Positions 12,001 to 18,000 of a stretch of 64,000 nt of DNA are shown in pieces; positions within the stretch are counted from its first letter, which is position 1; the number at the start of each line of letters is the position of its first letter. Source of the stretch: Escherichia coli O157:H7 (GTDB taxonomy: Bacteria; Pseudomonadota; Gammaproteobacteria; Enterobacterales; Enterobacteriaceae); the NCBI RefSeq assembly GCF_013167455.1, contig NZ_CP038328.1; one strand, 5' to 3'. The position numbers are program-made.

Positions 12001-15000
12001 TTGTTGATCGCCGCATCCACACGTAACAGCGTCTCTTCCTCATCAGGACGCCCCATAATGATGATTTTATCCACCAGAAAGGCTTCCTCTCCCGGAGCCC
12101 ATCCCCAGACATACATCTCAAAACGGTTTCGCTGCGAGTCAATGCCCGCCGTCAGATAAACCACCCGGGCAGGCACCGCCGCCGTGTAACGCACCACCTT
12201 ATCCATCAGTACCTGGTGATCGAGTTTTTCGCCCACGGCCTCTTCCCAGGTCTCGCCCAGCGTGGTGTTCACAAAGGTTTTCAGGCCGTTGGGATCTTTC
12301 AGTGCATCCAGCCAGTCATAGACAATCTGTACCCAGGTGGTGAACGGACTGTACGCCGTCCAGATATGGAACATGATGGAGCGCGGCGGCGGAATTTCAT
12401 CACCCCGGGCGCTGAAAAACGTCAGACCGTCACGGGTCCACATGCCCGTGTTTTCACAGATCCACCGCCCGTTGCTCTGGTCCAGTTCAGACTGATGGAT
12501 CACGCAGCCATGATGTTCACAGAGGTAGAAAACACTTTCAGGGCTGTCCTTCTCCCATTTAAGCCCAAAAGGCGTGGACTCATCGCCAAATTTCAGATAC
12601 TGCGCCTCCCCACAGTGCGGGCAGGGCACATAAAAACGCATAAAATGCGCCGACTCGTTAGCGGCTTTTTCGATCTGGCAGGTGCCTTTGATTTTAGGCG
12701 TCGAGCCGCGAATGGATTTTGGCCACACCGACCCCTCAATACGCTTATCCCCCAGCAGGGTTGGCGAGCCCTCTTTTTCGACATCCGGCTCGAACGAGGA
12801 AAGTTCGTCATAGCAGACCACGTCAACGGATTTTTCACGGTAGTTTTTGGCGGCAGCGCCGCCCAGGCACCAGAAACCGACGCCCGATGAAAAGCGTTTC
12901 AGCGTGAGAGTATTGTCACGATGTTTACGACCCAGCCATGGGGAAAGGTCTTTCAGGCATGGCACGTTCCGAATCGTCGCCTCCACGTGAGACTTCATAA
13001 AATCTTCAGCGGCAGAATCCGTGGGCTGAAAAAGCAGACTGTTTCGGGATTTATGCTCAATAAAATACCCGCCCCCCCCCCCAGCAACATCTTTGTATAG
13101 CCAACACGGGCAGATTTAATCAGATTAACAGTGCGGATCTGATCATTCCCCATACTGTTCATGATGGCGATCTGGAATGGCAGCGTTTTCCATTCGCCCT
13201 CACCATATGAAGATTCTTTAGGCAGATAATAATTTTGATCAGCCCATTCAACTGGCGTCACCGGCAATGCCCTTATCAGGGGCTGTAATGCAGTTGTGAC
13301 AGCGCTCATCATATTATTCAGTTGTTGCTCTGATATATTCATCAAGTAAATCCGGTAATTTATCCCCTGCCCGCGCACACTGATTTGCCCCCTTAGCAAT
13401 AAGGGTTTTCAGATGGTCAAGATGGCGCGGTGTTAAATCAGGAAACTGTCGCTGCATGGATAAAGGGATGGAATCAAGCGTACTGGATAACGCCATTGCC
13501 AGCTTACTGAGGGCAAAAATACAGAACCCGGTGTCAATCAGTTTTCCTTTTGACACCTCATTTTTTAAGTAAGCGTACAGCGAGGGCCGTATTGACGGGG
13601 ATGTGTTATTCAGCTGGCAGTGCTATGCGCCACGGAAGCAGTTCGCTGACCCGGTTGACCGGCCAGTCTGCTATGACGCCAAGCACATGGCGAAGGTAGC
13701 TTTCTGGATCCACGTCATTCAGTTTGCACGTCCCGATCAGGCTGTACAGTAGCGCTCCCCGCTCACCACCATGATCAGAGCCGAAGAACAGGAAGTTTTT
13801 ACGACCCAGACTGACCGCCCGCAGGGCATTTTCAGCGATGTTGTTGTCGATTTCCACCCAGCCATCGTTCGCATAGTACGTCAGTGCCGGCCACTGGTTA
13901 AGTGCGTACGCGAACGCCTTCGCCAACTCTGAGTGTCGCGACAGGGTCTTCATCTTTTCACGCAACCAGCTTTCCAGGGATTTCAACAACGGTTTCGTTT
14001 TTCGCTGACGTTCAGCAAGCCGCTGCTCTGCCGGCATTCCCCTTATATCCGCCTCTATGGCGTACAACTGACCGATCTGCTCCAGGGCTTCTTCCGTCAG
14101 TGCTGACGGGATGCGGACGTGCACATCGTGGATCTTTCGGCGGGCATGAGCCCAGCAGGCAGCTTCCGTTATCCCACCATTGCGATACAGCTCGTTGAAC
14201 CCGGCGTACGCATCCGCTTGCAGCACACCGCTGAAGCAGGCAAGATGAGTCTGCGGATGGATGCCTTTTCTGTCCGGGCTGTAAGCGAACCACACTGCAG
14301 GTGCCAACGCTGACCCTGCATTGCGGTCATCACGAACATACGCCCACAACCGCCCGGTCTTCGTCTTCTTATTACCCGGCAGCAGTACCTGGACCGGGGT
14401 ATCATCGGCATGGAGTTTGCCGTCAGTCATGACATAGCCATGAAGCGCCTCTTCCAGCGGAGACAGCAGCCGGCAGCATGCATCCACCCAGCCCGACAGC
14501 AGTGAACGCCTCAGCTCCACACCTTGCCGGCCGTATATTTCTGACTGGCGATACAGCGGGGTGTGCTCTGCATACTTCGAGGTCAGCACGCGGGCCAGCA
14601 GCCCCGGTCCGGCGATACCCCGCTCGATGGGCCGCGAAGGTGCAGGTGCCTGCACGATGGCATCGCACTGAGTACAGGCATGTTTTTCCCGTACCGTCCG
14701 GATAACCCGGAAGGCGCTACGCATCAACTCCAGCTGTTCGGCGGTATCCTCGCCCAGATAGCTCAGTGAACCGCCGCAGTTCGGGCAGCACGGCGCCGCA
14801 GGCAACAGTCGCTTTTCGTCACGGGGTAGTGATTCAGGGAACGGCTTACGGGTGCGGGTCTGACGCAACGGACGCTGTACTGCCGGGTCATACACCCTAC
14901 CAGTCAGCGTATCGCTCTCTTTCTGAAGCCGGTTCAGATCGGCTTCCATTTGTGCGATACGGCGGGAGACTTTTTCGGAACGACTGCCGAAGTTCATCCG

Positions 15001-18000
15001 GCGGAGTTTATCCAGCTGCGCCTGCAGATGGTCTATTTCGCGCTCCCGGTTGCTCAGCTTTTCCTGCAGGGCGTGGATCAGCGCTTCCTGTTCGGCCAGG
15101 CGCTGTTTCAGCAGGAAGATGTCGTCAGAAGAGATGTCGTTCATAAGCCCGTATTTTACCGGGCTTATTCTGTGACAACCAGGATAAAGAGATTTACAGC
15201 ATGGTCAGGGAGGTCAGCAGCCGCTTAGGCTGTCGCCAGTCGATACCTTCCAGCAGCATCGCCAGCTGCGCCTGCGTAAGGAACACTTTGCCATCACGGG
15301 CTGACGGCCAGGCGAAGCGCCCACGCTCCAGCCGTTTGGTCAGGAGGCACAGTCCGTCACCGGTGGACCACAGCAGTTTAACCTGACTGCCGCTGCGGCC
15401 CCGGAAAATGAAAACATGGCCGGACATGGGATCGTCTTTCAGCGCCGTTTGTACTTTCGCAGCCAGGCCGTTGAAGCCATTTCTCATATCGGTGATACCG
15501 GCAACCAGCCAAATTTTGGTCCCGGAAGGTAACGGGATCATCGCTTCAGTTCCTGTATCAGCAGAGTCAGGAGCTTTTCGCTGACATTGCCATTGAAGCG
15601 GAGCGTCCCGTGCCGGAACGTTACCTCACAGCTGATACTGAGGGTTTCCGGGTCCTCTGCGAGCGATTCTGGCTGTTCGGCAGCTGCATCGAGAGTCACA
15701 GGAAGTAGCTGGGGGCTCTCTGAAGAAGGTAATAGCAGCTTTCCCTCGCGCCATTGTTGTCGCCATTTGAACAACAGATTGGCGTTAATGCCATTTTCAA
15801 GAGCAAGTTTTGAGATGGATATCCCGGGTTCACAGGAGGCAGCAACGAGCTGCTGTTTAAATTCGGGAGGATAATTAGGGCAGCCTTTTCGCCTGCCGGG
15901 AGTCACATTTTTCTGCATATCTGATACTTTGGTTCCCACTACTTATTTGGTGGACACCACTTTGTCTAATTCGTCAGATTCTGACCAGACGGTTCAGGCT
16001 GTACGCTTTTTTAACTGCTGTGTAACAGCCTGTTCTGCTGTCAGTTCCCATCTGGCAATAAGCAATTTCTCCTCATAGTCGTCTTCGCTATCGCCATCAG
16101 GCACATCGTTTTTACTTCTCCTCAGATACGATATGTAAAAATCGCGCCAGGCATCCAGATCCAGTTGCCCTCGCTTATTCGATATCGGGGCACCCGGCAA
16201 TTTCTGCAATCTGCGAAGCTGGCGATCGGTCAGACTTAAATGCCTGGCAACTTCAGTCTGCGTAGCCACTCCTCACCTCGCAAAAACTCTCACCTCACAA
16301 TCACAACAAAACCGGTCATGTCCGGTTTACATGTCTGTTTTTTGTTCATGTCCGGTTCACAGAAGACCTGTTTTTATATTTTTCATATAGTTAACTTGAA
16401 GAGAAACCGGACATGGATCCCGGAAAATTTTCATAAATAGCGAAAACCCGCGAGGTCGCCGCCCCGTAACCTGTCGGATCGCCGGAAAGGACCCGCAAAA
16501 TGATAATAATTATCATCTACATGTCACAACGTGCATCTACGCCATCAAACCACGTCAAATAATTAATTATGACGCAGGTATCGTATTAATTGATCTGCAT
16601 CAACTTAACGTAAAAACAACTTCAGACAATACAAATCAGCGACACTGAATACGGGGCAACCTCATGTCAACGAAGAACAGAACCCGCAGAACAACAACCA
16701 GTTACAGATGCTTTATTAAGGAAAAAAACAGCCAGCACTGACTTTCGGTGGAGAGGTGCTGGCTCAGAAGGATAGTTGGATTTCACATGATACTTATGCC
16801 TGGCGGTATATTTTCTGACAGACAGTGACGGGTGTTGTCAAGATATTGTGTCATTTATAACCTGAATCAGGGGAGGCCGGAATGTTATCTGGCATTTTTA
16901 GCAGAGCCTGAATGCCATAATCACGGCTCCCGGAGTTGGCCGTCAGTGGGTGACACTGGCGGCTTTTTTGTTTTTCTTTACTTTCATTTTCTGTCGGCGG
17001 TGACGGAGACATACATCAGATGGAAAAAATCACAACAGGTGTGTCATACACCACGTCAGCGGTGGGGACGGAATACTGGTTACTGCAGCTGCTGGACAAA
17101 GTCTCTCCGTCCCAGTGGGTGGCAATAGGTGTGCTGGGAAGTCTGCTGTTTGGCCTGCTGACGTATCTGACTAACCTGTATTTCAAAATCAGAGAGGACC
17201 GTCGTAAGGTGGCGCGGGGAGAGTAGTCGATGAATAAACAATACGAACTGGTTGTAAAATGAATATTTCTAACTGAAAAAACGTTCCATGAGGTAAGAAA
17301 AGGTCACAGGCAATCAATAACAGGACGTGATGAAAGACCCTTGCATTTGTGCGCTTTCTCTTTAGATAGCAGCAGATACTGAAAATCTGAGTTGTCGGGG
17401 AGTCAGGGATACAGCTGTGCAAGAGTTGGTCATTGTGATTCCATTGAAATCCTGTATGCCATGAAGGGCAGGATTTTATGGCTACCTGAGCTTTGGTGAT
17501 AGTAAGTTGAAAATTCGCATTTTTTGCTGACATGCGTAACGAGAATCCCATAAGCAGGGAGGACTTAATTCTTCATTAACCCATGCGTTGATATTATGTT
17601 TCAGCCGTTGAAGCATCAGCGGTGTTAATGTTGTGGTAATAATATCCAGCGTTTTATGTGAGATCTTACCGTAAGGGTCTGCAAGAATGCTGCTTGTTGC
17701 TTCGTTATTATCTGCCATCAGAAGAAGTAACTCTGATTTAACGTTTTCTGTCATTAGTTGTAAAAATCTTCTGCGCAAACTTTCTTTACTGTTCATTTAT
17801 ATGGCTTCATTTGTTGTAATCTGCTGCGTCTCAAGGGATATGTTTATGAGAGCGACCATGAGTGTTGGATTATATACCTAACATATCAAGGGATTAGAAA
17901 TCGATAAATCCCCATGAACGAAAAAATAAAATACGGCCTGTCGGCTGCCGTTCTGGCGCTGATTGGTGCAGGTGCTTCTGCGCCTGAAATCCTCGACCAG

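What the first reader, a model, noticed from the sequence alone, without database searches (positions are those of the whole stretch)
13561..16014. IS66-family element inserted in nu1 with intact 8-bp target duplication
The octamer TTTTTTAA flanks both IS ends (13561-13568 and 16007-16014). The nu1 reading frame can be followed on both sides, which dates the insertion as recent and shows the packaging gene was intact beforehand. The IS carries all three ORFs and looks potentially active.
Basis: seen in the sequence. Interest (0 to 1): 0.4.

Follow-up and report, generated by a model that had tools for sequence, protein, structure and literature searches.

The report
ISEc8 splitting prophage Sp4 nu1
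This is the already published and annotated insertion of the mobile element ISEc8 into the small-terminase (nu1) gene of defective prophage Sp4 of E. coli O157:H7; it is ordinary, with the one twist that this copy lacks the last 4 bases of one end.

Summary
TTTTTTAA sits at 13561-13568 and 16007-16014, flanking a three-gene IS66-family element on the minus strand. Deleting 13569-16014 restores a continuous 510-bp, 169-aa nu1. That sequence is 600/600 identical to the intact nu1 of sister prophage Sp14 in the same genomes, and to a natural empty site at the Sp4 locus of strain 350.

The window is E. coli O157:H7 prophage Sp4 and the element is ISEc8. The insertion is annotated in the Sakai genome and described by Asadulghani et al. 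2009 (PMC2669165). They found that Sp4 DNA is still packaged, probably by Sp14's identical terminase.

- **Not strain-recent.** The same junction occurs in 289 of 5,426 complete E. coli genomes, including Sakai, EDL933, TW14359 and Xuzhou21.
- **Not structurally intact.** Canonical ISEc8 is 2442 bp and ends ...CGCTTAC. This copy is 2438/2438 identical to a canonical copy but lacks the terminal TTAC (5'-GTAA of the tnpA-proximal inverted repeat). All eight other copies examined have it. The genes could supply protein in trans, but this copy's own mobility is doubtful.

Novelty: already known. Interest: low.

The parts
13561..13568 (.). Target-site duplication copy 1 (TTTTTTAA; TTAAAAAA on the nu1 sense strand)
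   Evidence: Read directly. Present as a single copy in the empty sites.
13569..16006 (-). ISEc8 (IS66 family), 2438 bp. It is canonical ISEc8 (2442 bp) minus the 4 terminal bp at the 16006 end. The Sakai annotation calls 13569-16008 (2440 bp).
   Evidence: 2438/2438 identical to the PV15-279 copy and 2436/2438 to the Sakai backbone copy. Annotated 'ISEc8 Family: IS66'.
13569..13590 (-). tnpC-proximal terminal inverted repeat (IRR), intact. It starts 5'-GTAAGCGTACAGC, a perfect 13-bp core followed by imperfect matches.
   Evidence: (repeat I1).
13606..15144 (-). tnpC, the DDE transposase, 512 aa
   Evidence: Pfam DDE_Tnp_IS66 2e-106, plus the zf-IS66, LZ_Tnp_IS66 and IS66_C domains.
15194..15541 (-). 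tnpB, the IS66 Orf2 accessory protein, 115 aa. Its start overlaps the tnpA stop (ATGA).
   Evidence: Pfam TnpB_IS66 1e-38. ORF coordinates.
15538..15918 (-). tnpA, the helix-turn-helix accessory protein. 126 aa from the ATG that RefSeq uses; the ORF extends to a GTG at 15939 (133 aa).
   Evidence: Pfam HTH_Tnp_1 2e-12. RefSeq copies of tnpA are 381 nt.
15985..16006 (-). tnpA-proximal terminal inverted repeat (IRL), truncated. It begins 5'-GCGTACAGCC instead of 5'-GTAAGCGTACAGCC.
   Evidence: Alignment of 9 copies: all 8 others have GTAA. The register shift of +4 is seen.
16007..16014 (.). Target-site duplication copy 2 (TTTTTTAA). Its first 2-4 T could equally be read as remnants of the IS end.
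   Evidence: canonical copies align 2 nt further, through ...GCTT.
13314..13568 (-). nu1 3' half (codons 86-169 plus stop; codons 86-87 lie in the duplicated octamer, so both halves carry them). Annotated ECs_1105 from an internal GTG at 13556.
   Evidence: The Pfam Phage_Nu1 match lies mostly here.
16007..16269 (-). nu1 5' half (87 native codons from GTG 16269). The ORF reads on into the IS to 15994, giving a 91-aa product ending ...QQLK-KRTA.
   Evidence: Annotated ECs_1101 'hypothetical protein' in Sakai.
16453..16464 (-). cosN core GGGCGGCGACCT, identical to that of phage lambda, 184 bp upstream of the nu1 start. Context: the packaging site is intact.
   Evidence: PMC2669165 Fig. S8 states that the Sp4 and Sp14 cos sites are identical.
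11412..13378 (-). Terminase large-subunit gene A, downstream of nu1 and overlapping it. In this window it is frameshifted by a C11 run at 13063-13073.

Best explanation
A copy of ISEc8 sits in the middle of the small-terminase gene nu1 of lambdoid prophage Sp4 of E. coli O157:H7. ISEc8 is an IS66-family element with the genes tnpA, tnpB and tnpC. It lies in the same orientation as nu1 and duplicated 8 bp of target (TTAAAAAA in nu1 sense, codons 86-88).

The insertion splits Nu1 after residue 87. It separates the N-terminal helix-turn-helix part from the C-terminal part that carries the Pfam Phage_Nu1 match. By analogy with lambda gpNu1, the N-terminal part would bind cos and the C-terminal part would contact the large subunit (inferred). 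Sp4 therefore cannot make its own terminase small subunit.

Its cos site is intact. As published, Sp4 DNA is still packaged, most likely by the identical Nu1/A terminase of sister prophage Sp14 acting in trans.

At or after insertion, 4 bp were lost at the boundary between the tnpA-proximal IS end and the duplicated target. The expected sequence CGC-TTAC-TTTTTTAA is observed as CGC-TTTTTTAA. The loss can be placed three ways because of a TT microhomology.

The result is an ISEc8 copy with intact genes but one defective terminus, present in nearly all the O157:H7 complete genomes searched.

- Shown: identity of the element, boundaries, duplication, restored ORF, distribution, and the terminal deficit.
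- Published experiment: trans-packaging.
- Inferred: that the truncated end impairs mobility, and the domain consequences for Nu1.
For: - Sequence and ORFs.
- Pfam domains of the three IS proteins and of the restored Nu1.
- 100% match to Sakai Sp4, with ISEc8 and both nu1 fragments annotated there.
- Canonical 2442-bp copies end ...CGCTTAC and have perfect 8-bp duplications: PV15-279 and five Sakai copies.
- The window copy is 2438/2438 identical to a canonical copy but lacks TTAC.
- The restored site is 600/600 identical to Sp14 and to the Sp4 locus of strain 350.
- The junction is present in 289 genomes.
- PMC2669165 states that Sp4 nu1 is disrupted by ISEc8, that Nu1 and cos are identical to those of Sp14, and that Sp4 DNA is packaged probably by Sp14 terminase.
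- PMC7430833 Table S7 lists the Sp4 copy as 2440 bp against 2442 bp for the other listed Sakai copies.
- A lambda-identical cosN lies upstream.
Against: - Nothing contradicts the identification.
- It is not shown here that loss of GTAA blocks transposition. IS66-family end requirements could not be read (Han et al. 2001 is not held).
- The timing and mechanism of the 4-bp loss are unknown.
- Four genomes have an intact nu1 in the Sp4-type context, so the insertion is not strictly fixed. Whether that reflects excision, gene conversion from Sp14 or ancestral polymorphism cannot be told.
Confidence: 0.95

Rival explanations
1. One reading: a structurally complete, potentially active IS66-family element that inserted recently into this strain's nu1.
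For: All three ORFs are intact and identical to canonical copies. The octamer repeat is perfect. The flanks show no decay relative to Sp14. ISEc8 is active in the O157 lineage, for example a strain-specific insertion in stx2a of isolate 9000 (PMC5359411).
Against: The tnpA-proximal end lacks the GTAA present in all 8 other copies aligned, and the element is 2438 bp rather than 2442 bp. The identical junction is shared by 289 complete genomes, including Sakai, EDL933, TW14359, EC4115 and Xuzhou21, so it predates their divergence.
Confidence: 0.1
2. The 4-bp deficit is a sequencing or assembly artefact, and the real element is a canonical 2442-bp ISEc8 with an 8-bp duplication.
For: The junction lies in a T-rich run (CGCTTTTTTAA), where indel errors are common. 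A nearby homopolymer (the C run at 13063-13073) does vary between assemblies.
Against: The missing bases include A and C, not just T's. The same junction is 100% identical in the best-matching assemblies listed (33 rows), which come from many independent laboratories and include the Sakai reference. The Sakai annotators and Nyong et al. independently record a shortened (2440-bp) copy.
Confidence: 0.02
3. The shortened end arose during the transposition event itself, through aberrant end cleavage or joining, rather than by a later microdeletion. Under this reading the 8-bp duplication is truly intact.
For: The octamer is perfect on both sides under the 2438-bp parse. No intermediate state (a canonical end at this site) appeared among the best-matching rows listed for the junction search.
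Against: All five other Sakai copies have exact canonical ends plus 8-bp duplications, so imprecise joining is not typical. A TT/TT microhomology flanks the missing 4 bp, which fits a slippage deletion equally well. The sequence alone cannot separate the two.
Confidence: 0.3

Closest known systems
ISEc8 (IS66 family) as annotated in E. coli O157:H7 Sakai and EDL933
   Same: Same three-gene layout (tnpA, tnpB, tnpC, with the tnpA stop and tnpB start overlapping at ATGA). 2438/2438 nt identical to a canonical copy. Same tnpC-proximal inverted repeat. 8-bp target duplication.
   Different: Lacks the outermost 4 bp (GTAA) of the tnpA-proximal inverted repeat, which are present in all other copies examined. 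It is 2438-2440 bp long instead of 2442 bp.
Prophage Sp4 nu1::ISEc8 of O157:H7 Sakai (Asadulghani et al. 2009, PMC2669165; NC_002695 ECs_1101-ECs_1105)
   Same: It is this very locus. The 2646-bp query (the element plus 100 bp of flank on each side) is 100% identical to Sakai. The 14.6-kb Sakai region fetched around it aligns at 99.86%.
   Different: The window's strain differs from Sakai by a CC insertion in the poly-C run of terminase gene A (C11 against C9) and by a cluster of SNPs at 18908-19080.
Phage lambda gpNu1 / Sp14 Nu1 (terminase small subunit)
   Same: The restored 169-aa protein matches Pfam Phage_Nu1 (1e-18). Its gene lies between a lambda-identical cosN and gene A. It is identical to the protein at the uninterrupted site, which RefSeq annotates as terminase small subunit WP_000235436.1, both at Sp14 in strain TR01 and at the Sp4 locus of strain 350.
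   Different: The N-terminal roughly 48 residues fall outside the Pfam match (a divergent HTH region). Here the gene is split into an 87-codon 5' part and an 84-codon 3' part (two codons lie in the duplicated octamer and are counted in both).

Membership tests
IS66 family / ISEc8 | DDE transposase (TnpC) with IS66-family catalytic domain | tested here: met
   PF03050 DDE_Tnp_IS66 at 2e-106 over 283/284 profile positions, plus zf-IS66, LZ_Tnp_IS66 and IS66_C.
IS66 family / ISEc8 | Accessory genes tnpA (HTH) and tnpB (IS66 Orf2) upstream of tnpC, with the tnpA stop overlapping the tnpB start | tested here: met
   PF01527 at 2e-12 and PF05717 at 1e-38. tnpA ends at 15538 and tnpB starts at 15541.
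IS66 family / ISEc8 | Terminal inverted repeats beginning 5'-GTAAGCG at both ends. That this is the family norm is from my own knowledge of ISfinder, Han et al. 2001 and Gourbeyre et al. 2010, which could not be read here. | tested here: not met
   The tnpC-proximal end is GTAAGCGTACAGC (met). The tnpA-proximal end starts GCGTACAGCC and lacks GTAA, whereas 8 of 8 other ISEc8 copies have it. This is a damaged member, not a non-member.
IS66 family / ISEc8 | 8-bp target-site duplication | tested here: met
   TTTTTTAA on both sides, and a single copy in the empty sites. Five other Sakai copies and the PV15-279 copy also have 8-bp duplications. Caveat: other parses give a 6-bp or 4-bp remnant.
IS66 family / ISEc8 | Near-identity in nucleotide sequence to copies annotated as ISEc8 | tested here: met
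   2438/2438 to the PV15-279 copy and 2436/2438 to the Sakai backbone copy annotated 'ISEc8 Family: IS66'. The ISfinder reference itself was not available.
Lambda-type terminase small subunit (Nu1) | Sequence membership in Phage_Nu1 | tested here: met
   PF07471 at 1e-18, 67.9 bits against a cutoff of 30, on the restored 169-aa protein.
Lambda-type terminase small subunit (Nu1) | Gene lies between cos and the terminase large-subunit gene A | tested here: met
   cosN GGGCGGCGACCT lies 184 bp upstream. Gene A overlaps the nu1 3' end.
Lambda-type terminase small subunit (Nu1) | Continuous ORF once the IS and one duplication copy are removed | tested here: met
   510 nt, 169 aa, identical to the annotated intact gene in strain 350 and to Sp14.
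Lambda-type terminase small subunit (Nu1) | cos-binding and terminase activity | not testable with these tools
   Only the published inference that Sp14 terminase packages Sp4 DNA (PMC2669165).

The most novel reading that the evidence does not exclude
The unique loss of the terminal GTAA has immobilised this ISEc8 copy. That would explain why it persists unchanged at one site in nearly all the O157:H7 complete genomes searched while still acting as a transposase donor. In addition, the surviving 91-aa N-terminal Nu1 fragment (HTH domain only) might still bind the shared cos site and modulate packaging of Sp4 and Sp14 DNA by Sp14 terminase. Neither idea is excluded by the evidence, and neither was tested.
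Probability: 0.2. Interest if true: 0.25.

Novelty: already known. Interest (0 to 1): 0.08.

Why it matters
The locus is a textbook case of how IS elements disable prophages in E. coli O157:H7 while prophage-prophage complementation keeps their DNA transferable. That point was made experimentally in 2009.

The only increment here is explicit documentation that the Sp4 copy of ISEc8 has a 4-bp truncated terminus. Earlier sources record this only as a 2440-bp length. The truncation matters a little for IS-based typing and for anyone assuming that all ISEc8 copies in O157 are mobile.

Tried and rejected
- **IS66 end requirements.** I tried to read Han et al. 2001 (IS679/IS66 family; DOI and PMC95320) to cite end requirements. 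It is not held, and a term search gave nothing directly useful. The claim that GTAA termini are the family norm therefore rests on my own knowledge plus the nine-copy alignment.
- **Origin of the strain 350 empty site.** I tried to tell gene conversion from excision using 11 SNPs between the window and the Sp14 of strain TR01. I rejected this. In most strains, Sakai included, Sp14 is identical to Sp4 through window 16699, so those SNPs are TR01-specific and uninformative.
- The tnpC-proximal ends of L002-L004 were fetched at the wrong coordinates, so three rows of alignment A2 are meaningless. The L002 ends had already been checked correctly.
- **Data access.** Loci fetched in parallel were not all available to scripts, so the ends were compared with DNA alignment instead.
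- **Chance match.** I considered and rejected the idea that the octamer is a chance match. The empty sites settle it.
- **Not done.** I did not identify the exact source strain of the window. I did not test O55:H7 or sorbitol-fermenting O157:H- genomes for the junction.
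Full report
**Observation**

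The octamer TTTTTTAA is at 13561-13568 and at 16007-16014, exactly as reported. Immediately inside the left copy the sequence reads GTAAGCGTACAGC. Immediately inside the right copy it reads ...GGCTGTACGC.

Three ORFs lie between the octamers on the minus strand:
- 15538-15939, 133 aa from a GTG. RefSeq uses the ATG at 15918, giving 126 aa.
- 15194-15541, 115 aa.
- 13606-15144, 512 aa.

Pfam assigns them as follows:
- HTH_Tnp_1, E = 2e-12.
- TnpB_IS66, E = 1e-38.
- DDE_Tnp_IS66, E = 2e-106, with the zf-IS66, LZ_Tnp_IS66 and IS66_C domains.

The first ORF's stop overlaps the second ORF's start. This is the standard tnpA-tnpB-tnpC layout of an IS66-family element. A chance match of two 8-mers has probability about 1.6e-5 at this base composition.

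**Is it a true insertion into an intact gene?**

Deleting 13569-16014 (the element plus one octamer) gives a continuous 510-nt ORF of 169 aa. It runs from the GTG at 16269 to the stop at 13314 on the minus strand. The protein matches Pfam Phage_Nu1 at 1e-18.

A 600-bp reconstruction of the uninterrupted site is 100% identical to a locus annotated 'terminase small subunit' elsewhere in the same O157:H7 genomes. In Sakai that locus is prophage Sp14 (H208).

In strain 350 (CP018243) the Sp4 locus itself carries the uninterrupted gene. Its alignment to the window ends at 13568 and resumes at 16007, with the 8-bp octamer shared between the two segments. The reconstructed protein equals the annotated one there. 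So the insertion, the duplication and the prior integrity of nu1 are all confirmed. The protein is 169 aa rather than about 180.

**What and where**

The region is 100% identical to E. coli O157:H7 genomes. In the Sakai reference it lies in 'prophage Sp4, lambda-like phage'. There the element is annotated 'ISEc8 Family: IS66', and the two nu1 pieces are ECs_1101 and ECs_1105. RefSeq names the transposase 'IS66-like element ISEc8 family transposase'.

Upstream of nu1 is a cosN core identical to lambda's, GGGCGGCGACCT at 16453-16464 on the minus strand. Downstream is terminase large-subunit gene A.

**Already published**

Asadulghani et al. 2009 (PMC2669165) make three relevant statements:
- The Nu1 proteins and cos sites of Sp4 and Sp14 are identical except for the ISEc8 insertion.
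- Sp4 DNA is nevertheless packaged after regional amplification by Sp5, 'most likely ... by the terminase of Sp14'.

That supplies the functional explanation. The IS kills the prophage's own small terminase subunit, and a sister prophage complements it in trans.

**The correction: one IS end is short**

The inverted repeats align best if the right arm is shifted 4 bp into the octamer. A query ending ...GCTGTACGCTTAC is matched end to end at 100% in many genomes.

The canonical copy in strain PV15-279 is 2442 bp, runs GTAAGCG...CGCTTAC, and is flanked by GAGAAAAG on both sides. The window copy is identical to it over all 2438 positions but stops before TTAC.

Using coordinates from Nyong et al. 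2020, Table S7 (PMC7430833), corrected against the ISEc8 features of the current Sakai record, I fetched five further Sakai copies: backbone, SpLE1, Sp8, Sp9 and Sp12. All five are 2442 bp with perfect 8-bp duplications. These five plus three copies from other strains all begin GTAAGCGTACA at the tnpA-proximal end. The Sp4 copy is the only one of the nine reading AAAAGCGTACAG.

The same deficit is implicit in earlier sources. The Sakai annotation gives 2440 bp and so does Table S7. Canonical copies align to the window junction only through ...GCTT.

The expected junction is CGC-TTAC-TTTTTTAA and the observed one is CGC-TTTTTTAA. The missing 4 bp can therefore be read as TTAC, TACT or ACTT. 'Intact 8-bp duplication with an IS 4 bp short' and 'IS 2 bp short with a 6-bp duplication' are the same sequence.

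Whether the loss happened at insertion or later by slippage across the TT microhomology cannot be decided from the sequence. Transposases act on the exact termini, and GTAA is invariant in the other copies. I therefore infer that this copy is a poor substrate for transposition, although it can supply TnpA, TnpB and TnpC. This was not tested.

**'Recent'?**

The element and its flanks show no decay. However, the exact junction is present in 289 of 5,426 complete E. coli genomes, including Sakai, EDL933, TW14359, EC4115 and Xuzhou21. It is therefore an old, lineage-wide insertion.

Only four genomes have an intact nu1 joined to the Sp4-type upstream flank: strain 350, 2571, DEC4E and F6321. Sp4 and Sp14 are about 99.98% identical for 8.3 kb on one side of the site. 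In most strains they are identical for 685 bp on the other side. Gene conversion from Sp14, precise excision and ancestral polymorphism therefore cannot be distinguished.

ISEc8 as a family is active in O157. One example is a strain-specific insertion in stx2a of isolate 9000 (PMC5359411).

**Verdict**

This is a known, annotated and published feature. Interest is low.

Noticed in passing
window 13063-13073 (within terminase large-subunit gene A, 11412-13378, minus strand): A homopolymer C run is C11 here, C9 in Sakai Sp4 (in frame, 654 aa) and C10 in strain 350 and in TR01 Sp14 (annotated 'frameshifted'). In this window gene A is split into ORFs 12995-13399 and 11412-12998. About 30 genomes carry C11, at either the Sp4 or the Sp14 locus. 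This is either a real slippage-prone tract or a homopolymer assembly error.
   Followed up: partly
window ~16700-21265: The Sp4 lysis module is inverted relative to nu1/A and relative to the collinear Sp14 arrangement in TR01. It comprises holin (17020-17226, + strand), endolysin, Rz and pchA. One edge of the inversion coincides with the outer end of an IS629/IS1203 copy. The late operon upstream of cos is therefore rearranged, a defect not listed for Sp4 lysis in PMC2669165 Table 1.
   Followed up: partly
window 20187-21265: The IS629/IS1203 copy appears to carry an internal deletion of about 228 bp. It matches positions ~1-695 and ~924-1316 of the intact copy in TR01. Sakai annotates it as two adjacent 'partial' pieces.
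   Followed up: no
window 18908-19080: A tight cluster of 15 SNPs relative to Sakai and strain 350 in the Rz/endopeptidase region. It looks like a short recombination patch rather than point mutation.
   Followed up: no
L005 (strain 350, CP018243 1253700-1254209); also strains 2571, DEC4E, F6321: Four O157:H7 genomes carry an uninterrupted nu1 in the Sp4-type context, whereas 289 genomes carry the IS junction. The origin is unresolved: gene conversion from Sp14, excision, or ancestral state.
   Followed up: partly
one search hits H1-H2 (ERL06-2503 and Balcarce_24.2): In these two strains the same locus spans 3959 bp instead of 2646 bp, and an IS1203/IS3-family transposase is annotated under the match. 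A second IS has apparently landed in or next to the ISEc8 copy.
   Followed up: no
window 16270-16452 (minus strand, between cosN and the nu1 start): There are repeated CCGGACATG / CATGTCCGG motifs where lambda has its cosB R sites. They are plausibly the Nu1 binding sites shared by Sp4 and Sp14.
   Followed up: no
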